A DNA stretch of 55,303 nt from Neolecta irregularis DAH-3 (lineage: Eukaryota). This document shows positions 1 through 22,470 of the stretch, one piece after another. The stretch covers positions 1-55,303 of the forward strand of contig LXFE01003037.1 of NCBI GenBank assembly GCA_001929475.1, read 5' to 3'. A program made the position numbers and the translations under genes. Position 1 is the stretch's first letter. Each line of letters begins with the position of its first letter. The notes under the pieces were generated by a model. The model was not told where the DNA came from. It worked only from the letters and a program-made list of their open reading frames with translations, and did no database searches.

Positions 1-66
1 TCACGATAAGAAAAGATTGCTGGAGCCAAGGATTTTTGAATTGACGAAAAGGAGTTTTTGAGAGTG
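1..66. repeat. 66-nt terminal direct repeat, copy 1 (identical to 55238-55303)
   Basis: tcacgataagaaaagattgc...ggagtttttgagagtg is present at both ends of the window. Confidence 0.97.
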
Positions 67-849
67 GAGGCCTTGGAAATAGTTTTTAATAGCCGTTTCT
101 TCAACTGACGTTTAGCAGTGAGTGATATAGACGGGGACCTTGATCTTTTGGAAATCGGAGGGGCTGCTCAGAGATGGCAGAGTAGCCGGGGGAGTGTCTG
201 ATGCAAAGGAAGAAAGAACACAGCCGAGCTCGGTATCTTGATGGTTCGATACAGCCCACTGGCCGGCGGATATGCGCTGAACAGCTGTGCGGGCAGCCTC
301 TGCATCTGCTGGGCTGAAATGGGAGCTAAACATATCGCAGCCTGCACGTTACCTACAGTCCGGGACAGCCATACAATCGTGACTATGGCTCTCACTGTCG
401 GTACCACGACTATGGCTCTCACTGTCCATACCGCGACTATGGCTCTCACTGTCCATACCGCGACTATGGCTCTCACTGCCGGAATCATCGCTCACCACAT
501 TGCGCACTTCTGGAGCCTCCGCCGAGTGCTCTGAGCAGCCGGCACCCGGGTCTTGTGCCGCGAGGAGCGCGACCAAAGCCTGGCAGGCCTCGCGGGCGGT
601 GGAGGCGGAGTCGTCCATGGGCGTCCTGCGGCCCCGGCACCCGGCGATATGGCGTATATGCGCTGCCGCGGGCGTATACAGCAGGCGCTGCGTATATGCT
701 GTGTATATGCACTGCGAGCACTTTGCGATTATCTGCCGCAGCAGCGCAGGGCGGCTGCTGCCCGTGGCGCCCGCCCGCCGCCTCCCTTTGTCGCCCGCTC
801 TCCCTCCCTTGCTCCCTCTCCCGCCCCAATCGCCCGCCCCCGCCCTCCC
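1..849 (-). CDS. UTP25: 5' part of U3 snoRNA-associated protein 25; continues into the 3' part at the other window end
   Basis: Minus-strand reading ...KIK|intron|[35 protein letters not shown] runs through the 66-nt overlap into the UTP25 exons at 53754-55303. Acidic/Ser-rich N-terminus. First ATG at 618, but the frame stays open (Gly/Arg-rich) up to the N gap, so the start is uncertain. Confidence 0.75.
381..478. repeat. 27-nt coding tandem repeat, about 3.6 copies
   Basis: Unit gactatggctctcactgtccataccgc starts at 381, 408, 435 and 462; encodes DSESHSRG(M/T) on the minus strand. Confidence 0.95.
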
Positions 850-859
850 NNNNNNNNNN

Positions 860-1114
860 AAGGCCTTGTAAATAGTTTTTAATAGCCGTTTCTTCAACTG
901 ACGTTTAGCAGTGAGTGATATAGATGGGGACCTTGATCTTTTGGAAATCGGAGGGGCTGCTCAGAGATGGCAGAGTAGCCGGGGGAGTGTCCGGTGCAAA
1001 GGAAGAAAGAACACAGCCGAGCTCGGTATCTTGATGGTTCGATAGAGTCCACTGGCCGGCGGATATGCGCTGAACAGCTGTGCGGGCAGCCTCTGCATCT
1101 GCTGGGCTGAAATG
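860..1114 (-). repeat. Second, slightly diverged copy of UTP25 segment 67-321, lying between two N gaps
   Basis: Aligns ungapped to 67-321 (offset 793) with about 7 substitutions. Confidence 0.92.
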
Positions 1115-1124
1115 NNNNNNNNNN

Positions 1125-1331
1125 GTCGACTGAGAAGCATTTTCCCGCACACTGTTCTGTTGCTGTATATTCATCTACACCATGTGTGAATACCGAACTG
1201 CTGTGTATATGGCCTTCAAGAGAAAAATTGACTTGCTCAAAAAGCTCTGGGATTTCGCTGAAATTCTCGAGATATTTTGCAGAGCAGACAAGAGGATAAA
1301 GTGCAATCAAACACAGGAGCTTAGAGAACAT
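1125..1331 (-). CDS. 5' fragment of a putative secreted protein, truncated by an assembly gap
   Basis: ATG followed by signal-peptide-like MFSKLLCLIALYPLVCSA; frame open to the N gap at 1124. Confidence 0.4.
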
Positions 1332-1371
1332 GTTTTGGAATAAATCTTTGTGGAGAGATGATTGATTTTAT

Positions 1372-1758
1372 AGAAAATCTGGATAAGCATGAAAGGGGCG
1401 AATTATGTTTTTGATCCAGTCGATTTTAAGTGGTTTGCATCTGGCAGGGACTCAGACAAGCCCTCCCCACAGCGCCCAAGTCAATCACAAGGGACAACAG
1501 TACATAGGAAGCGCAGGAGTCAGCTTGGCAAGATCGAGGGGCCACAAGTATTGATCCCAGAGGAAAGTAATGGGATCAAATATACCAATAAATTGGTCTT
1601 GATTGTTGATACACAAAGATACTTACACCAACTATTGAGTGATAATATCAACCGTATCCAGGATTCGCGCCTTTTGTATGCATCAATTTGCAGAGCGGTG
1701 GACTCGACAGAAAATCTGGATGATCATGAAAGAGGCGAATTATATTTTTGATCCAGTC
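1372..1758. repeat. 50-nt imperfect direct repeat pair (1372-1421 and 1709-1758)
   Basis: agaaaatctggat...catgaaag.ggcgaattat.tttttgatccagtc, 46/50 identical. Confidence 0.9.
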
Positions 1759-4425: not shown

Positions 4426-4568
4426 TTTTTTTTTACATTATTATCCATTGGAAGTGCAAAGGAAAAGGAGTCCTTGAGGACAGACCCACAAATATGTGAG
4501 GGGTTGATAGTGGTGTAGCGAATAAATCTTGCCTTGACCGTGGTTCTCCATTCCATCTTCACTACACT

Positions 4569-4886
4569 ATGTCGAGAGTATATTCTTTTCTCTCCGGCGT
4601 ACTCGTCTCGTCAGCACTAGCATATACTTCTATCACATCTATAGGGTTATCAACAACAAACCTCTCAAAGGATCTGTACCGGCAAATATCACTCCTAGAC
4701 CAGATCGATTCGGAATCACCAACATCACAGTCGTCGCCTAAATTTGAGGAGCGCATTTTTTCAGATACTGTTAAAGATCTATGGAATACAGAGTTTGAGA
4801 AAGGCGTTCGGTGGTTTTATGAAGCCGATTTTTCGGGCAAGACATTCGATGCTGCACGGACAGTCAGTGATTGGTTTTCTCGATAG
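4569..4886 (+). CDS. MIC12: MICOS subunit Mic12/Aim5-like protein
   Basis: N-terminal TM segment and DTVKDLWNTEFEKGVRW motif; 105 aa. Confidence 0.7.
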   Translation: MSRVYSFLSGVLVSSALAYTSITSIGLSTTNLSKDLYRQISLLDQIDSESPTSQSSPKFEERIFSDTVKDLWNTEFEKGVRWFYEADFSGKTFDAARTVSDWFSR

Positions 4887-5222
4887 ACAAGCTTGGAATA
4901 GTGTATGTACGGGATAGGAGGAAACTGTGCTAATGCTGTTGATCGTATCTAATCGAATTTTTTACATCTCAGATTTCACGGTGTAGAAATCCGAAACAAC
5001 TCGTTGCGTTATATTAGACTGGACCTGATAGAAAAGCCTCATCGTGCTTTTTTTCTTGTCTAATACAATCCTTGATTGAAATAACGCTTAAATGACATTA
5101 TTAACAGGAACAACAAAGAACGAGAACAATTTCCTATATACAATGTCTCACATCCCTTCCATTATCTCAAAGGCTTGAAAAGATATAAGCTAGGGTCATC
5201 CAAGGATAAATATATTCTATAA

Positions 5223-6026
5223 ATGCCTTATATCACTGTTCATGCGGCTCCGAAGAAAAGATATGTTCGTAGGTCAACTGGTATTCCGCCACTGGAGAGT
5301 ATTGTCGAAGAAATAGCACCATCACCGAAACCCTCTCCACTATTACTTATATTAAATGAATTACAAGCCCTCCGTCAAGAACAGAAACGAGCCAATGAAG
5401 AGATTAAAATGTTACGAGAAGCAGCGGAAAGTCAACCAATTCCAACAGTCATTGTTTCTCGCGCAATGCTTCGTCAGCCACGGGTTTTTAGTGGCTCTCG
5501 GAACGTTATCGCAGTGTACGAATGGGTACATTCAGTCAATGACTACATCAGACTCTCCCAAATGGAGGAGGCCGATCAGTTGTTATTCGCTTCGACATAT
5601 TTGGATGGACCCGCTCGGATTTGGTTCGACCTCAATTATCGAGAGCTAGCTTTGAGAAATACCATCGCCTGGGAGGAGTTTAAAACAGCGTTTGTGAATG
5701 CATGGAAACCTATTAATTACAAATGGGATCTGTGGATTCAGTGGGAAGATATCAATCTGATAGGGAGTGTTCGCGAATTTGGAAACTCTCTCAATAATAT
5801 CCGTAACATGAACAATCTTTTCAACCCATCTGGAAAGATAGACCAACTCGAGCTTCTTGGTCGTCTAAGACATGGGATAAAAAGCCGTTATGGCCACTTT
5901 GATGACTCCAAATATAATACATTCGACGAAATCGTTGCAGCCGCTGATAATCTGGAAAGACAGGAAAGGAATATAGATGCACTAAAGGAAAATCCCAAAG
6001 TCCTTCGAAAGTCAGGGCGAAAGTAA
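5223..6026 (+). CDS. Stand-alone Ty3/gypsy retrotransposon Gag (capsid)-domain protein
   Basis: PRVFSG...VYEWVHSVNDY...ASTYLDGPARIWF...WEEFKTAFVNAW...GSVREF...RHGIK...TFDEIVAAA match Retrotrans_gag capsid hallmarks; uninterrupted 267 aa ORF. Confidence 0.85.
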   Translation: MPYITVHAAPKKRYVRRSTGIPPLESIVEEIAPSPKPSPLLLILNELQALRQEQKRANEEIKMLREAAESQPIPTVIVSRAMLRQPRVFSGSRNVIAVYEWVHSVNDYIRLSQMEEADQLLFASTYLDGPARIWFDLNYRELALRNTIAWEEFKTAFVNAWKPINYKWDLWIQWEDINLIGSVREFGNSLNNIRNMNNLFNPSGKIDQLELLGRLRHGIKSRYGHFDDSKYNTFDEIVAAADNLERQERNIDALKENPKVLRKSGRK

Positions 6027-6143
6027 AGCACATTTTGTTATATATAAAGCGCGTTATCACAGAATCTTTGGAGGTTTTTTTCGACCTAGACTTGACCCCA
6101 AAATATTGTAACAAAATGACATCCCTGACGTTCAGTTGAGCCC

Positions 6144-8507
6144 ATGTCCCTTGAATTTGTTGTCTGCGGCCCACCAGTGCTTCCTAAACCAACAAAGCCC
6201 AGTCCAGTAGTGGATATCACCTTTACACTGAGGAAGATCTTTAGAAAAGAACACTTTCGAGGCTGCCAGCAGAAAATTATTGAAGCTGCACTTCTCGGTA
6301 TCAAGTTCACAACCACGCCGCAAGAGATATTCTGACCTTTCCAGGACATGATGTGTTTGTCATTGCCCCGACAGGGATGGGAAAAAGTCTGTGCTACCAG
6401 CTTCCTGCAGCAGCATCGGCTCAGGGCGTATGCCTAAGCGCCCAAAACACGCTTACTTAACTAAAAAGATAACAATTGTTGTGAGTCCATTGCTCTCTTT
6501 GATGGGTAATCAAGTGGATCTATTACGGAAGTCGAACATCAAAGCAGCAACACTGAACTCGTCAATCACGTTTCAAGAGCGTAAAGCGGTATATATTACC
6601 AGACAAACCCAACTAAATGCTTAGATTTTGGACGATCTTGCTTGTGGCCGTCCTCAAAATCGGCTGCTTTATGGTAATTTATCGTTTCACACTTTTCTTA
6701 TCGTCTAGTTACCCCAGAATTATGCGCAACCCAACCTTTCCGAAGATCTGTTTCTGTTATCCATTCTCAGGGCGAACTCAATCGATTCGTAATCGACGAA
6801 GCACATTGTATATCAGAGTGGGGACATGATTTTCGTAAAGATTTTAAATTGCTCTATTATTTCAAGCAGGTTTTCGAATAGATGATCTTGATTTTCTAAG
6901 CTTCAGACTTACCCAGACATTCCAGTTATGGCGTTGACCGCTACAGCTACGGATCGCGTGATACAAGATGTCATTTCAATCCTTCGATTACCCAAACCGC
7001 CAAAGTTGAAACTATTTACACAGTCTTTCAATCGACAAAATCTATATTATGAAGTTCGATTCAAGAATGACAATTACGATCAATATCAAGACTTTCGCAA
7101 CTTTATCCTTTCTGTTTATGATCGTCGCAAAGTCAGACTGTCACAGCCTGAGAGTCAGCTACAATCTACAGATAGAATTAGTGGAATTATATACTGTGGA
7201 AAACGACAAACTTGCGAAGAGGTTGCGAAACGCCTTTGTACCGATGGCCTTCAAGCTATGCCATATCACGCAGGCCTTCCACCTAAAACCCGTGAATCAA
7301 CAATGAACAAATGGGTTGAAGGAGGTCATGGAGTTGATATTATAGTCGCTACGATTGCGTTTGGAATGGGTATAGACAAGGCTGATGTAAAAGTTGTATT
7401 TTCAACGTCATTCACGCATACAGGTACGATTTGTGGTTCATTGGGAAATGTCAAAAAGTGTTGAGGGTACCTTGTTGAATTCAAAGTTGGTCCAATATTT
7501 TAGCATACTACCAGGAATCTGGTCGGGCCGGTCGGGATGGCAAGGCGGCTCGTTGTATCTTGTATTACTCGAGGTATTATTCGTTATTTTTATACATTTA
7601 AACATTCAGGGATGATAAAGATCGCATCGAATATCTTCTCGGACAGGATGGTAACAACAAAATAGGACAAGTCTCTGGATTAAAGCAAGGCTCGGAAAGA
7701 TTTGCTGCGGTAAAAATATTGCTGCGTCGACACTAATTTCCAGCTCACCAAATACTGCGAAAATCTAACTGAGTGCCGACATGTCATTATATGTAAATAT
7801 TTCGGAGAGATTGTACCTCAAGAAAAATTAAGTTCATATTGCGATCGTGCTTGCGATATTTGGTCAGTTCACTTCATTGTATCTCATAGAGCTAATCCTG
7901 CAACAGCCGAAATCCAGATAAAGTTAGGAATCTCAAGGCGTGTGGTTTATTCCAGAGAACTACGACAAATCCAATAAAACTGGTTTCTAAAGAGGGAAAT
8001 GCAGATCGACTTGTTGCGAGAGACGGTAACGAATATCGAGAAGCCGGTGATTCAAACGGTCGCATCACGTTGAAACGTCCGACAATCGTGAGCGAAGACA
8101 CTTTACGAAGCGAAGCTGCTGAACGACGGCGATATCTCTTCGGTAAATCCACTCTGTCCAATGACCCACCTACGACAGAACACTCATTAAATAAGGCGGG
8201 TCTAAAATTGAGGGAAGCTATTCGTGTTCAATATAACAAGTCCTTACGCAATGCTCCGTTAACTACATGGATAAAACTTGGGCTTTCAGAAGCCCAAGCT
8301 AATGATCATGACGCAGTTGCCTTTCTTCTTGTGGATATCTCTCAAGCATTAGAGGAAGATGTTTTCCGAAGGGATGTCACCGCCCACGTATACAGAAATG
8401 CCGCATCTGCTAGGCTGCTTTCACTGAAAAAACTTGCTGCTGGGTTAAGTTTTGCAACAGAGATTGTAGAAGTGATTACAGGCGTGATAGGTAACTTGAA
8501 GAGCTGA
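6144..8507 (+). CDS. RecQ-family DNA helicase, RecQ5-like architecture (multi-exon)
   Basis: [62 protein letters not shown] Zn motif CRH..YFGE..C..CDI. Confidence 0.9.
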
Positions 8508-12480: not shown

Positions 12481-13461
12481 TTATCCAGGCGGGAGCATGC
12501 TAGCATCAACTATGTCTTCCGCATCTTTCTCAATGATATCAGCTTCATTGTGATCTAATGGGGCCCGAGGCAATGCCATCATTCCTGTATATCAGTGTAG
12601 CTCCTGTGAATTGGTATACCGCTTCTCGCAGCTTCTAGAATCCCGAATGGCTTCAAAAGATGCATCAGGGCGTCCACTCGAGAGGGTTTAGCACTGAGCT
12701 CGACAATACAAGTGTCAGTGGATATATCGACCACTTTCCCACCAAATTGTCTTGCGAGTGAAGTTACTGCTTGGAGATGTGCGTGCCGATGTCTGAGAGC
12801 TTCCGACGGTGCAAGGTTGACTGGGTGAAAAGCTGCTTTAGACTACTGTGAGCTGAAGTAGAAATCGATATACCTCTACCGGCTCTACCTCTGGAGACGC
12901 GTTTCCTTCGACAACTTCAGCTCTATGATGAGCCAGGAGATCATCAAAATGTTCTGGTCCAAGAATGGAGACTTTACAAAGAAAAAGTTCGCGTTCAACA
13001 ATCCGAGTCTTGGTGTAATCAAGAACGGCCCATACAGGCACGAGATCTTCCAGTTGTCTTCTCGCTTGTTCGATGACCCCATCCGGACCTTTAAGGGCAA
13101 TCGCCATTCGGCTGAGATCCTTGACTTCTGTCGTGCACACGACCAGTGAGTCAATATTAAATCCTCTCGCAGCCAAAATTCCAGACACACGAGAAAGAAC
13201 ACCAGGCTCGTTCTGTACAAGACAGTTCAATACATGGCGCTTGACGGGCGATTCAGCTGAAGTGTTTGGGGTGTTGTAAAGAATGTTTGTAACAGCATCA
13301 GCTGGAGACCACGACGGGGGGTCTATTTTCGGCAGCAGGAGAGGTCTACGGCGATGAATCGCCTTATAAACAAGAGCAGAAGTACTGCTTGAATTGCAGC
13401 GTCGGAAAAAAAGAGTTGCAATTTTGCGCGCGGGAGCCCATGGAGGTGCCGGTGAACGCAT
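12481..13461 (-). CDS. ILV6: Acetolactate synthase regulatory small subunit, mitochondrial
   Basis: HVLNCLVQNEPGVLSRVSGILAARGFNIDSLVVC; C-terminus ...DASMLPPG*. Confidence 0.95.
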
Positions 13462-13667
13462 GCTGTGGATTAGAAAAGGAAGTTCCTCGAGCACAAATTA
13501 GGCCAAGTCTGCTGCTCGAATATACAATGCAGCTATCGGGTTCTCCTCAATTTTCTATTATACAGAGTTTCTCTTTGAGAGACAATATACACAAGTGTTG
13601 TTTGGGCGACGGGAATCTCACCCGCTGGTGGGAAATGTGGGGTTGTCTGGCTTTCATCCACCAAACA

Positions 13668-14219
13668 ATGGATGCTCCCCATAAAGAACCTCGCAGACGG
13701 GAAAGAATGTCAATGACTCCAGTGTCAATGTTCGAGGGTCTTCCAACACCGCCAAAATACTATTCTACACCCGCAACTCCGGGTGTTCTCACACCTCCTC
13801 TTTCTCGTAAACCCAGCGTGTTTTTTAATCCAACGCACGAGTCTGCGGTCGAGAATCAATGGTTCTATCGAAGTGCTGCCAAAGTCGCATCAGAAGGCAT
13901 GGAAGAAAGAGGCGAAAGTTGGATTATACAAGCTGAAGATGATTCTGGAACAGTATATCATTCTGAATCGGATGGACCTAAAAAGAAACATTGGATCGAG
14001 AAGAAAGATGGACGATGGGGGAAATTTGTCGGCAATATCTTGGCCTGGTGGGAAGATGATGATAACGATGTATTAGACGAATTTGCGTATGATAGTGCAC
14101 AAATTGGAAGTCCTGAGAAACGACAAGAGGACGGGGATTGGACGGCAGTCATTGAACCATTTTCAGTTGCAGCATTTATGATAGTGGCCAGTACGAGATT
14201 GGGCAAGTGGTTCCTGTAG
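13668..14219 (+). CDS. Conserved fungal hypothetical protein, possibly DUF3984-like
   Basis: PATPGVL and WFYRSAAKVASEGMEERGESWI resemble motifs I recall for DUF3984; start codon uncertain. Confidence 0.5.
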   Translation: MDAPHKEPRRRERMSMTPVSMFEGLPTPPKYYSTPATPGVLTPPLSRKPSVFFNPTHESAVENQWFYRSAAKVASEGMEERGESWIIQAEDDSGTVYHSESDGPKKKHWIEKKDGRWGKFVGNILAWWEDDDNDVLDEFAYDSAQIGSPEKRQEDGDWTAVIEPFSVAAFMIVASTRLGKWFL

Positions 14220-16153: not shown

Positions 16154-17996
16154 ATGAATCATTTTACCAACTATGACCTCCCCGACTCCGTTTCGGATGA
16201 AATTGTCAACTCGGACACTGGAGAACAGTATCAAGTGTATGACAAAATCCACCACGGCGCAGAGAGTACAGTCTTTGCTGTTAAGAACTCGAAAGGTCGC
16301 GAGCTTGCTGTCAAGCGCCTGGATAAGAATGTTGAAGGCACAGATCGCTCGAAGATTTGTCAGAACGAGGTATCGTCGTCATGATGTCAAAGTATCACGT
16401 TGAACTTATTTAGGCTAAAATTCACGCTTCGCTTCCCGCTCATCCTGGGATCTGCAAGGTCTTCTCAACGTGGTCTGATAGTAATTACGTTTACATTGCC
16501 CTTGAAAGGCTGCATGGACCAAATTTGTATCAATGGCGCTGGAGCAGTCACCAGGTGTCGACATCTCGATCATCTTCAACCCAAGCAGAGATGATTAAGG
16601 ATATCTTTCTACAAATTCTTGATGTTGTCGGCGTAGTACACGCTGCTGGAGTTGCACATCGGGATCTTCAGCCATCAAATTTCATCATCACCATGGATAC
16701 CAAGGGAAACCCCGTTGTGAAGCTTGTCGATTTCGGAAATGCCACTCGTGATACAGTGTCCAGAAACTTTGACGTTGGATCGTTGGCTTTCATGCCATAT
16801 GGTGAAGTTCTCTTGTTCTTTTGTAGACTCACGTCATAGAATGTCGTTCCAAGAACTTTTTCACATATCAGACGACAGTTGCCGACATCTGGACTCTGGG
16901 AATCGTATTCCTTTTCCTAACATTCGGAAAGTATCCCTGGGACGATCCCCATATCTCCGATGATCACTTCGCTGCCTACATCTACGATTCAAAACTTTTT
17001 TTCAGAAGGATGTATCCTGAGCTTACCCCGAAAGCTGCTGGTTATCTCGTCGAAAACATTTTTACCTGGAAGCCGACACAAAGAGCACCTCTCTACGAGT
17101 TTCGATCATGGGCAGTGCGTTTAGATGACACTGTCTACGGCGCTACTAATCCTGCGAATAAACCCTCGGCCTCGATACTTTTGCAAGATTCGCCAACGCT
17201 CAACTCCAGTCACAAAGCTTCAATAGATTACTCTGATTCTGGCTTGTCGTCCATGGAGGTGGATTCTATATCAAGTCGACCAGCTGTAACGGTCCCATCA
17301 ACTTTTTCATGGTCTGTTAAGGATTCTATCCGTTCGTCTGTGCCCTCTATATCTCACTCACCTACCTTGTCTTATCTTACATCTAATGATTCTCCATCGC
17401 CGATTACTGGTAGACGTCTCCACACTAACCGTCAGTCGATCATCTCCTCACATCCCAGTGAATATACGGTAGGCACGAACGAATCTTTTCGATCGGAGGG
17501 TTCATCACAAGTAGGTCGCGAAATACCTTGTCCAGAAGGTCATCGCAATATCAATATGACTCTATCTCAAAAATATCAAGCTCCTACCCGTCGTGGTCAG
17601 TTCGAGCCAGATCTCGCCCTTGTGTCTGATATGATCAGCACGAGCTGGGCACAAAATTATGCGAAGCCTAAGACCAGCAGCTCTAGGTTACGCCAAACGC
17701 CTAACATCCCTGCGGCCGTTGAAGAGGAATCTTCTGAAGCTTCTGATAAGACAGGTCCGAAACGGAAAAAACAACGGTCAAAGCGATGGAAGGCCTTAAG
17801 TCCTGAGCTTCGCAAGCTTAAAAGCCTGGGGTTACCGTTACCTCCAAAGGGCGAGACGGAACCAGAACCCGAGGCGAAGAAGAAGGAACCTTCTCGTCTG
17901 AAAAAGACTCTTTCAATTCTCTCTTCCTCAAGCACAGAATCGAAAGGTCTCTGGAAAAGTATGAGAGAAAAGATCGGACGAAAGAAAGACGATTAG
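16154..17996 (+). CDS. Divergent Ran1/Pat1-like Ser/Thr protein kinase with long Ser-rich tail
   Basis: LAVK, HRDLQPSN, VKLVDFG, DVGSLAFMPYEC, ADIWTLG, GKYPW; two short introns. Confidence 0.8.
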
Positions 17997-21766: not shown

Positions 21767-22470
21767 GTTCCCAGCATTGATATTTTGGCAATTCATTAAG
21801 CTTGGGTCTATTTGATTTGACATTTCTCTTCGGCAACGATCTTATAACACACCCCATCCGTATTTTGCTTCTTTAAGTTTGCAAGCAGGTTTTTTATCAA
21901 TTTCCATCCTTCCAATAATGAAGACAAGTTAGACAAGTTTGGAATACTTCAATCTCTCTTGATACAAAGCCACTTCCCAATATATGTCTGGCACCGCCTT
22001 TGGGAGGAACACAGTGATAACCATCCTTCTCCATGCATGCCGGGTATCAAGAAAACAAGGTTCTTTCAAAGATTAGGCCGTTTGTCTTTCTTAGAAAATA
22101 GACTTGGAGGTCGTGAAAGTTAGCGACAATGTCTGACAAATTATTCGATTTTCCCCAGCTCCAACATTGTGAGTGGATATAAATTTATCAAGCGCTTAAA
22201 CGTTGTGAAATAAGTTTGTTCTCAGTAAATAACAATGAAAGCCATATGTTCTGATGAAGCTACTTTGAGTTCATTTGAAAGCCCATGTGGAGGAGACAAA
22301 AGCTAGGCAGGTATTTTGCATTGCATGCACACTGAACGTGAGGAGTATGAACTCTGTACAATGTTTCTCCCTGAGAGGGAAACAACCAACTATGAAATCT
22401 ACATCAAATGGTGATATCCTTGAAGTCTACAACATCTGTGCTTCAATCCAGGGGGTTCAATTGAAGAAGT

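What the first reader, a model, noticed from the sequence alone, without database searches (positions are those of the whole stretch)
5223..6026. Candidate domesticated retrotransposon capsid (Arc/PEG10-like) gene in a fungus
Seen: an intact, intronless 267-aa ORF with a basic N-terminus, a predicted coiled coil (LNELQALRQEQKRANEEIKMLRE), a complete Ty3/gypsy capsid region and a short basic tail. It has no CCHC knuckle and no protease/RT/integrase; the RecQ gene starts about 118 nt after the stop. I see no LTRs, and the AT-rich upstream region has TATA-like motifs. Established: solo gag genes of this type were co-opted in animals (Arc, PEG10, RTL/PNMA) and form RNA-carrying capsids, and Gag-derived proteins restrict Ty1 in yeast. 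Inference: a host-maintained capsid acting in RNA packaging or transfer, or as a retrotransposon restriction factor.
Basis: partly seen in the sequence, partly recalled or inferred. Interest (0 to 1): 0.75.

Follow-up and report, generated by a model that had tools for sequence, protein, structure and literature searches.

The report
Solo retrotransposon capsid gene in Neolecta
A fungal gene-sized remnant of a jumping gene's shell protein sits intact between two housekeeping genes; it may have been kept by the host, but this could not be proven, and the public annotation probably joins it wrongly to the neighbouring helicase.

Summary
Window 5223-6026(+) is an intact, intronless 267-aa ORF encoding a Ty3/gypsy-type Gag reduced to a coiled-coil helix plus both capsid lobes. 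It has no cysteine, so no zinc knuckle, and the 55-kb contig has no LTR, protease, RT or integrase. Gag ancestry is solid.

The window is a whole contig of Neolecta irregularis.

New facts:
- The deposited model OLL22550.1 fuses this ORF to the downstream RecQ5-type helicase, through two predicted introns that remove the stop codon. This is probably an artefact.
- The only close relative among 1.84 billion representatives is a same-genome paralogue, NEOLI_003469 (41-44% identity). It is also intact and knuckle-less.
- No orthologue, no source element and no RNA data could be obtained.

Domestication is therefore plausible, about 50%. The support is an intact frame, clean loss of everything else, and shared derived changes with the paralogue. 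It remains unproven: synteny, dN/dS and expression were all untestable here. This is a candidate new member of a known kind, of moderate interest.

The parts
5223..6026 (+). Intact intronless ORF of 267 aa plus TAA: a solo Ty3/gypsy-type Gag (capsid only)
5223..5327 (+). Residues 1-35: basic N-terminus predicted to be disordered (5 K/R in the first 20). Poorly conserved with the paralogue (18% identity)
5328..5432 (+). Residues 36-70: long amphipathic helix, a putative coiled coil. 47% identical to the paralogue
5466..5711 (+). Residues 82-163: capsid N-terminal lobe (CA-NTD). The Pfam Ty3_capsid and Retrotrans_gag matches lie here. 55% identical to the paralogue. Keeps the family hallmark residues P86, G91, W101, Y108, A131, W134, W150 and P163
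5712..5972 (+). Residues 164-250: capsid C-terminal lobe (CA-CTD). 40% identical to the paralogue. Both paralogues share changes at conserved family columns (R171W, L174W, L177I, Q179L/V, Y186F, F190L)
5973..6026 (+). Residues 251-267: short basic tail (6 K/R of 17) and the TAA stop. There is no zinc knuckle
4887..5222 (+). Upstream intergenic region, 336 nt, 35% GC, with TATAWA at 5135 (-88) and 5218. Putative promoter (inference). No LTR or PBS relic
6023..6135 (+). Bridge of the deposited fusion model: intron 6023-6062 (40 nt, removes the stop), 11-nt mini-exon 6063-6073, intron 6074-6135 (62 nt). Probably a prediction artefact. TATATA at 6039
4569..4886 (+). Upstream neighbour: AIM5/MIC12 (105 aa)
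6144..8507 (+). Downstream neighbour: RecQ5-type helicase, 11 coding exons and 10 introns of 34-47 nt. It is complete from its own ATG at 6144

Best explanation
This is a stand-alone gene derived from the gag of a Ty3/gypsy (Metaviridae) LTR retrotransposon. It is separate from the RecQ5-type helicase downstream and is retained in the Neolecta irregularis genome after loss of the nucleocapsid knuckle, pol and both LTRs.

The product is a coiled-coil helix followed by a complete two-lobed capsid fold with basic termini. It belongs to a two-member, Neolecta-specific lineage whose common ancestor had already lost the knuckle and remodelled the start of the CA-CTD.

Shown: ancestry, architecture, solitude on the contig, and the existence of the paralogue.

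Inferred: it is kept by selection and acts through capsid-type self-association or hetero-association. My preferred mechanism is a Gag decoy that interferes with particle assembly of a related element, as Drt2, p22 and Fv1 do. The alternative is a capsid-like oligomeric scaffold. RNA packaging through a knuckle is excluded; only unspecific binding by the basic ends remains possible.
For: Gag ancestry
- Pfam Ty3_capsid E 3.1e-6 and Retrotrans_gag E 2.4e-3.
- 198 proteins at E<=1e-3 among 1.84e9 representatives. Of the 43 I scanned, 42 carry these gag families, 15 a zf-CCHC and 6 pol domains.
- Atlas features point to Retrotrans_gag, top score 0.94.

Fold
- AF2 with a 74-row alignment gives pLDDT 88.
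- Best structural matches: dArc1/2 capsid Z 11.1-11.7 with 156-159 residues aligned; Ty3 capsid Z 10.6 with 151 aligned. The first 44 rows are all retroelement or retroviral capsids.

Solo status
- No LTR, pol or paralogue in the 55 kb.
- Only 336 nt and 117 nt separate it from housekeeping neighbours.

Separate from RecQ
- Human RECQL5 residue 15 aligns 24 residues after the internal Met.
- 44% of 500 shuffled spacers allow a stop-free GT..AG bridge.
- The bridge needs an 11-nt exon and a 62-nt intron, against 34-47 nt for the 10 RecQ introns.

Retention
- If neutral, the frame would survive with P>=0.05 only to K of about 0.02-0.04, yet everything else of the element is gone.
- The paralogue NEOLI_003469 (256 aa, 41% over 238 aa, E 5e-64) is also intact, with the same architecture.
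- The two share seven departures from strongly conserved family columns and form a clade (SH-aLRT 99) whose sister group carries CCHC in 5 of 6 members.
- There is no rate excess in this copy: 0 of 13 Tajima tests significant.
- Codon use (0.774) lies within the host range 0.756-0.796 and above a uniform-synonymous null of 0.722+-0.013.
- A decayed relic for contrast: S. japonicus SJAG_05143 keeps homology only in residues 28-143.
Against: - No orthologue was found in any other organism, so conservation across species and synteny are unshown.
- The paralogue's genomic context was not seen. It could be the gag ORF of a full element.
- Fission-yeast Tf1/sushi Gags natively lack CCHC and some are separate ORFs ending in a stop (passages of PMC10085805). 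The shared knuckle loss could therefore belong to a transposon lineage and not to a host gene.
- The N. irregularis assembly is fragmented (N50 16 kb) and could not be searched, so unannotated source elements are not excluded.
- For the decoy mechanism: Drt2 is 91.5% identical to its target (passages of PMC13709905). Here the nearest known Gag is 41-44% identical.
- The long stem (2.47 changes per site, quick tree) shows fast evolution, which could also mean relaxed constraint.
- The Pfam scores of this ORF are below the curated cut-offs.
Confidence: 0.5

Rival explanations
1. Recently orphaned relic. This would be the gag of a Ty3/gypsy element whose LTRs and pol were deleted a short time ago. 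The frame is still open only because too little time has passed, and it has no host function.
For: - No orthologue, no expression data and no selection test are available.
- Compact genomes delete DNA fast (14.5 Mb).
- Gag relics are annotated as proteins in related fungi, for example SJAG_05143.
- The assembly could hide the source family.
Against: - A neutral frame survives with P>=0.05 only to K of about 0.02-0.04. In that same time two clean deletions must have removed at least 4 kb and both LTRs, leaving no relic in flanks of 336 and 117 nt.
- No gag above 44% identity is present among about 15 billion proteins, which include this genome's annotated proteome.
- Both lobes and 23 of 38 family-conserved columns are kept, as many as in the paralogue with 21 of 38.
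- There is no rate excess.
Confidence: 0.28
2. The deposited model is right. Two short introns splice out the stop codon, and the cell makes a 932-aa capsid-RecQ5 fusion helicase.
For: - The deposited protein OLL22550.1 has exactly this structure.
- The authors had RNA from fruiting bodies, so the model might rest on transcripts.
- Both bridging introns have GT..AG ends. Intron 2 has a CTGAC branch-like motif, and intron 1 is 40 nt, within the local range.
- The spacer to the RecQ ATG is only 117 nt.
Against: - RECQL5 homology begins 24 residues after the internal Met, and solved RecQ5 has no N-terminal domain.
- The path needs an 11-nt exon, and its 62-nt intron is longer than all 10 RecQ introns.
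- 44% of shuffled spacers offer such a path by chance.
- The paralogue is a 256-aa stand-alone protein.
- No other gag-helicase fusion appeared: only P0002 itself among 8000 scored longer candidates, and none of the 8 long hits I scanned has a helicase domain.
- The annotation methods are in a supplement I could not read.
Confidence: 0.08
3. Part of a still-mobile or non-canonical element, for example a gag-only non-autonomous retroelement mobilised in trans, whose ends I did not recognise.
For: - Two diverged copies exist in one genome.
- The ORF is intronless in an intron-rich genome.
Against: - There are no terminal repeats of any kind around it, and no shared word longer than 9 nt between the flanks.
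- No tRNA or PBS-like site was found.
- Only two copies are known, at 41-44% identity, not a family of similar copies.
- The flanks are filled by the neighbours' own sequences.
Confidence: 0.05

Closest known systems
Ty3/gypsy (Metaviridae) Gag capsid, Pfam PF19259 Ty3_capsid / PF03732 Retrotrans_gag; Ty3 capsid structure 6R24
   Same: Sequence homology. Two-lobed CA fold, Z 10.6 with 151 residues aligned to 6R24. N-terminal helix before the capsid lobes.
   Different: No CCHC nucleocapsid (0 Cys). No pol, no LTRs, single copy on the contig. Several strongly conserved CA-CTD columns are replaced. Pfam scores are below the cut-offs.
Drt2 (endogenised Ty1' Gag) and p22/p18 of S. cerevisiae; Fv1 of mouse (Gag-derived restriction factors)
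   Same: A gag-only ORF at a fixed chromosomal site in a fungus, without pol. The CA-CTD fold matches 9RXY and 7NLI at Z about 8 with 84-86 residues aligned. The lattice-poisoning mechanism is the model for my preferred reading (passages of PMC13709905).
   Different: Drt2 derives from Ty1/copia, keeps only the CA-CTD (169 aa), lies among Ty relics, is 91.5% identical to its target, and has shown purifying selection and knockout effects. Here the origin is Ty3/gypsy, both lobes are kept, no relics surround it, no target is known, and nothing has been tested.
Arc/dArc1, PNMA2 and PEG10/RTL (animal domesticated Ty3/gypsy Gag genes)
   Same: Same superfamily of origin and the same bilobar capsid fold: dArc1/2 Z 11.1-11.7, PNMA2 Z 9.3-9.9, PEG10 CTD Z 9.4. 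An N-terminal helical or coiled-coil region precedes CA, as in Arc (recalled).
   Different: An independent event in a fungus, with no orthology. Identity is only 12-23% in the structural alignments. Capsid formation, RNA binding and expression are all untested.
Crtg12-14, the three fungal co-opted gag genes of Wang and Han 2021 (PMC8321522)
   Same: Single-copy, gag-only genes in fungal genomes (passages).
   Different: Those derive from Ty1/copia (two) and Bel-Pao (one), are shared across at least two fungal families with synteny, and show selection and expression. This one is Ty3/gypsy-type, known from one species, and meets neither criterion as yet.
Gag of fission-yeast Tf1/sushi elements (Tf1, Tj1, Tcry1, Tosmo1-3)
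   Same: Taphrinomycotina host, Ty3/gypsy superfamily, Gag without a CCHC motif, and in several elements a separate ORF ending in a stop (passages of PMC10085805).
   Different: Those are parts of full elements with pol and LTRs. Direct sequence comparison could not be run here, because none of these sequences was at hand. The one S. japonicus hit (SJAG_05143, 25-26% identity) is a decayed fragment.

Membership tests
Ty3/gypsy-type retrotransposon Gag (PF19259 / PF03732) | Profile match at or above Pfam's curated cut-off | tested here: not met
   Ty3_capsid scores 27.2 bits against 29.1, and Retrotrans_gag 18.5 against 24.1. The paralogue P0003 passes Retrotrans_gag, 29.7 against 24.1.
Ty3/gypsy-type retrotransposon Gag (PF19259 / PF03732) | Significant sequence homology to proteins that are members | tested here: met
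   198 hits at E<=1e-3. Of the 43 hits scanned, 42 carry the gag families above threshold or nearly so, and 6 also carry pol domains of Ty3/gypsy type.
Ty3/gypsy-type retrotransposon Gag (PF19259 / PF03732) | Two-lobed all-helical capsid fold (CA-NTD plus CA-CTD) | tested here: met
   AF2 pLDDT 88. Ty3 capsid Z 10.6 with 151 aligned; dArc Z 11.1-11.7. Caveat: the model was built from an alignment of gag proteins.
Autonomous LTR retrotransposon | Linked pol (PR, RT, RNase H, IN) and flanking LTRs | tested here: not met
   Gag-pol queries hit only 5316-5957. No flanking direct repeats. Housekeeping genes lie 336 and 117 nt away.
Autonomous LTR retrotransposon | CCHC nucleocapsid knuckle in Gag | tested here: not met
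   0 cysteines in 267 residues. Some Taphrinomycotina elements natively lack it.
Co-opted gag gene (criteria of Wang and Han 2021) | Shared synteny across species of at least two families, or a gene tree that follows the host tree | tested here: not met
   No orthologue in any other organism among 1.84e9 representatives or 5.8e9 clusters, and 0 of 596 metagenome candidates confirmed. Criteria read. No other Neolecta genome was available.
Co-opted gag gene (criteria of Wang and Han 2021) | Evidence of natural selection (dN/dS below 1) | not testable with these tools
   The paralogue's coding DNA and any orthologue are unavailable. There are only indirect hints: an intact frame, domain-wise conservation and no rate excess.
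Co-opted gag gene (criteria of Wang and Han 2021) | Expression | not testable with these tools
   No RNA run was listed.
Gag-derived restriction factor (Drt2 / p22 / Fv1 type) | Gag-only ORF at a fixed host locus | tested here: met
Gag-derived restriction factor (Drt2 / p22 / Fv1 type) | A co-resident target element whose Gag shares the interaction surface | tested here: inconclusive
   The only relative above 32% identity is the paralogue at 41-44%. The genome itself could not be searched.
Gag-derived restriction factor (Drt2 / p22 / Fv1 type) | Restriction of retromobility | not testable with these tools
   This needs an experiment.
RecQ5-type helicase (as the deposited model files this ORF) | The ORF is part of the helicase's conserved architecture | tested here: not met
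   RECQL5 homology covers fusion residues 297-742 only. Human residue 15 aligns 24 residues after the internal Met274. The precomputed Pfam domains of P0002 are helicase-only.

The most novel reading that the evidence does not exclude
The deposited gene model is correct. Neolecta splices the gag stop codon out and makes a capsid-RecQ5 fusion, in which a retrotransposon capsid domain oligomerises a DNA helicase or targets it, for example to retroelement particles or cDNA. This architecture has no counterpart among the proteins searched.
Probability: 0.08. Interest if true: 0.8.

Novelty: new member of a known kind. Interest (0 to 1): 0.4.

Why it matters
If the gene is host-maintained, it would be a Ty3/gypsy-derived capsid gene retained in a fungus.

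- The 2021 eukaryote-wide survey found fungal gag co-options only from Ty1/copia and Bel-Pao (passages of PMC8321522).
- The best-studied fungal case, Drt2, is also copia-derived.
- My two literature searches listed no later Ty3-type fungal case. One search listed 20 of 57 papers and one search listed 14 of 14; I saw only the listings and abstract starts.

Neolecta is an isolated, early-diverging, multicellular ascomycete with a compact genome. A two-member capsid gene family there would be a useful independent replicate of the Arc, PNMA and Drt2 stories.

On the practical side, the public protein "ATP-dependent DNA helicase Q5" OLL22550.1 probably carries 273 foreign N-terminal residues. These can mislead orthology and domain analyses.

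Tried and rejected
- Whole-genome search: no genome is held.
- First word-indexed protein search with the ORF alone: 1099 candidates, none at E<=1e-3. It missed even the paralogue that the exhaustive search found.
- PDB search by sequence with the ORF: only a chance hit, MIF2, E 0.38.
- AF2 on the single sequence: pLDDT 51, unusable.
- RNA evidence: no RNA holder was listed for window 4500-6900.
- Metagenome contigs: 596 pattern matches, 0 confirmed relatives.
- Homodimer prediction (residues 36-267, two copies): 'no answer', score 0.01 against a mark of 0.32, controls not run. This is neither support nor evidence against self-association.
- Branch-length asymmetry in the quick tree (1.26 against 0.37), read as a sign of decay of this copy: rejected, because 0 of 13 relative-rate tests were significant. 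The careful tree did not finish, so only the quick tree (SH-aLRT) is reported.
- Splice-signal inspection could not separate the bridging introns from real ones. One accepted RecQ intron has an equally weak branch region.
- Chance ORF: rejected.
- The genome paper's annotation methods and any repeat census are in supplements that are closed. They may say whether the fusion model had transcript support, and how many retrotransposons the genome holds.
- Literature on Neolecta retrotransposons: 7 papers hold both words. I read passages of one, PMC7940399, which says nothing on Neolecta transposons.
Full report
**1. The observation**

Window 5223-6026(+) is an ATG-to-TAA frame of 267 codons. An in-frame TAA directly precedes the ATG, and the stop-to-stop frame has the same coordinates, so it cannot be extended upstream in frame.

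The product has these features:
- A basic N-terminus, with 5 K/R and no acidic residue in the first 20.
It is residues 44-66, inside a predicted helix at 39-70 with pLDDT 96-98. The best heptad register has 8 of 10 hydrophobic a/d positions.
- A basic tail, with 6 K/R in the last 17 residues.
- No cysteine at all, so no zinc knuckle.

114 of 2403 possible single-base changes would create a stop, so the frame is not a chance ORF.

**2. What it is derived from**

- Pfam gives two concordant but sub-threshold matches: Ty3_capsid (E 3.1e-6, 27.2 bits against 29.1, residues 76-167) and Retrotrans_gag (E 2.4e-3, 18.5 against 24.1).
- An exhaustive HMMER search of 1.84 billion representatives found 198 proteins at E<=1e-3.
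- I scanned 43 of these, the best 39 plus 4 further long ones. 42 carry the two gag families, 15 a zf-CCHC knuckle, and 6 pol domains of Ty3/gypsy type such as RVP_2, RVT_1, RT_RNaseH and Integrase_H2C2.
- Language-model features point the same way, top score 0.94.
- With a 74-row alignment, AlphaFold2 gives a confident model: mean pLDDT 88, with 198 of 267 residues at 90 or above.
- Foldseek's best matches are the dArc1/dArc2 capsids (TM 0.70-0.72 by target length), PNMA2 and Ty3.
- VIA-align gives dArc Z 11.1-11.7 (156-159 aligned), Ty3 capsid Z 10.6 (151 aligned), copia 10.0, PNMA2 9.3-9.9 and PEG10 CTD 9.4. The Ty1 p22 and Drt2 CTDs score about 8. All first 44 rows are retroelement or retroviral capsids.

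Z values of this size are common for helical proteins, and the model was built from gag alignments. The fold match therefore confirms the sequence homology and does not add independent evidence.

The lobes fall at about residues 82-163 (NTD) and 164-250 (CTD).

**3. Context**

A cluster look-up shows that the window is a complete 55,303-bp contig of Neolecta irregularis DAH-3. This is an early-diverging ascomycete with a 14.5-Mb genome, 5,546 predicted genes and N50 16 kb (passages of PMC5309816).

- The contig is filled with housekeeping genes. The upstream neighbour is AIM5/MIC12 (stop at 4886) and the downstream neighbour is a RecQ5-type helicase (ATG at 6144). Further genes include Cut8, methionine synthase, PPR proteins, porin, OTCase and Utp25.
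- None of the 39 other long ORFs scanned has a transposon domain.
- Eight gag-pol proteins used as tblastn queries hit only 5316-5957, apart from two 12-residue chance matches near 21995.
- No direct repeat flanks the ORF.
- Its flanks match nothing else on the contig and share no word longer than 9 nt with each other.
- There is no tRNA gene on the contig.
- The ORF has 336 nt upstream (35% GC; TATAWA at -88 and -5) and 117 nt downstream (TATATA 13 nt after the stop).

So it is a truly solo gag.

**4. The deposited annotation fuses it to the helicase**

The best database hit (P0002 = OLL22550.1, "ATP-dependent DNA helicase Q5", 932 aa) is 100% identical to the ORF over residues 1-267. It continues ...[15 protein letters not shown]... 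into the helicase.

Mapping it back shows that the model uses three pieces:
- an intron at 6023-6062 (40 nt), which removes the stop;
- an 11-nt exon at 6063-6073;
- an intron at 6074-6135 (62 nt).

The ten introns of the helicase proper are 34-47 nt.

I think the fusion is an artefact, for four reasons:
- Full-length human RECQL5 aligns from its residue 15 to fusion residue 297. That is 24 residues after the internal Met274, so the helicase is complete from its own ATG.
- 44% of 500 shuffled spacers also allow a stop-free GT..AG bridge, so the existence of such a path means little.
- The paralogue is a stand-alone protein of 256 aa.
- No other gag-helicase fusion was found. Only P0002 itself appeared among 8000 scored longer candidates, and none of the 8 long hits I scanned has a helicase domain.

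I cannot exclude the fusion. The splice signals are acceptable, and the authors had RNA, but their annotation methods are in a supplement that is closed. No RNA run was listed for me to check.

**5. Relatives**

- The only close relative anywhere is P0003 = NEOLI_003469 of the same genome. It is 256 aa, on a 13.7-kb contig, with E 5.9e-52. BLASTP gives 41% identity over 238 residues, E 5e-64.
- The next hit drops to E 3.4e-12 and 32% identity.
- Profile searches with both paralogues found no further member. Only P0003 appeared among 7601 near-length candidates, and only P0002 among 8000 longer ones.
- A metagenome scan confirmed 0 of 596 pattern matches.
- Named neighbours further out are plant elements (Tanacetum, Selaginella, Punica) and unnamed metagenome proteins.

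In a quick ML tree of the capsid region, with all 74 of 74 rows kept, the two Neolecta proteins form a clade (SH-aLRT 99) on a very long stem of 2.47 changes per site. The sister group has six members. Five carry a CCHC knuckle. The sixth, S. japonicus SJAG_05143, is a decayed fragment whose homology stops at residue 143.

Knuckle loss is therefore shared and derived in the Neolecta pair.

The two paralogues also share seven departures from strongly conserved family columns around the start of the CTD: F161W, R171W, L174W, L177I, Q179L/V, Y186F and F190L. At the same time they keep the NTD hallmarks.

Identity between them follows the domains: NTD 55%, helix 47%, CTD 40%, N-terminus 18%, tail 12%.

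The tree's unequal end branches (1.26 against 0.37) are not backed by relative-rate tests, 0 of 13 significant.

**6. Is it kept by the host?**

Arguments for retention:
- A neutral frame of this length would stay open with P>=0.05 only up to about 0.02-0.04 substitutions per site, assuming an indel:substitution ratio of 0.05-0.2. Within that time, at least 4 kb of pol and both LTRs would have had to disappear without trace from very tight flanks.
- A second, equally intact copy with the same reduced architecture exists at 41-44% identity.
- Codon use and GC3 are host-like: 0.774 within 0.756-0.796, against a null of 0.722+-0.013; GC3 0.39.
- No source element is seen in the annotated proteome or elsewhere.

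Arguments against, or gaps:
- No orthologue is available, so synteny and dN/dS are untested.
- The paralogue's context is unknown.
- The fragmented assembly could hide elements, and I could not search it.
- Expression is unknown.
- Gags of fission-yeast Tf1/sushi elements natively lack CCHC and can be separate ORFs (passages of PMC10085805). The shared features may therefore belong to a transposon lineage.

I put host retention at about 0.5, a recent neutral relic at about 0.28, the fusion at about 0.08, and an unrecognised mobile element at about 0.05.

**7. Mechanism (inference)**

With both capsid lobes and a coiled coil but no knuckle, the protein can plausibly only self-associate or bind a related Gag.

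The best-documented fungal precedent is lattice poisoning by Drt2 and p22. There, a Gag fragment caps the CA-CTD dimer surface of the element's Gag (passages of PMC13709905). That is my preferred reading.

It is weakened because Drt2 is 91.5% identical to its target, whereas no Gag above 44% identity is known here.

An Arc-like capsid that carries RNA is less likely without a nucleocapsid. Only the basic ends could bind RNA.

A homodimer prediction gave no verdict and counts for nothing either way.

**8. Comparison and novelty**

Gag-derived host genes are a known kind:
- In animals: Arc, dArc, PNMA, RTL/PEG10 and SCAN.
- In fungi: Crtg12-14.
- In yeast: Drt2.

The 2021 survey found fungal cases only from copia and Bel-Pao, and it required synteny across families plus selection. 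This locus meets neither criterion yet.

My literature searches listed no later Ty3-type fungal case. One search listed 20 of 57 papers and one search listed 14 of 14; I saw only the listings and abstract starts.

The locus is therefore a candidate new member of a known kind. It comes with a probable annotation error that is worth correcting.

Noticed in passing
window 1-1500: The contig start looks like an assembly or scaffolding oddity. A 254-nt direct repeat (68-321 and 861-1114, 98% identical) is bordered by two 10-N runs (850-859, 1115-1124). Between the copies lies a 27-nt tandem repeat at 378-505.
   Followed up: no
window 1372-1421 and 1709-1758: A 50-nt direct repeat, 92% identical, 337 nt apart. 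Its meaning is unknown.
   Followed up: no
window 6116-6139: A 7-codon upstream ORF (ATG...TGA) ends 4 nt before the RecQ5 ATG at 6144. It lies inside the second predicted bridging intron, so splicing of a 5'-UTR intron would remove it (read).
   Followed up: no
P0140 (S. japonicus SJAG_05143, 268 aa): This protein is annotated as a retrotransposon gag domain protein. Its gag homology ends at about residue 143, and the rest is low-complexity, frameshift-like sequence. It is probably a decayed Tj-type gag relic called as a gene.
   Followed up: partly
window 6144-8507: The RecQ5-type helicase gene is very intron-dense. It has 10 introns of 34-47 nt in 2.4 kb, with exons as short as 39 nt, mostly GTA donors and YTRAY-like branch motifs 5-12 nt before the AG.
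   Followed up: partly
window 13293-14219(+) and 16827-17996(+): Two long open frames (308 and 389 aa) have no Pfam family at E<=1e-3. They may be lineage-specific genes.
   Followed up: no
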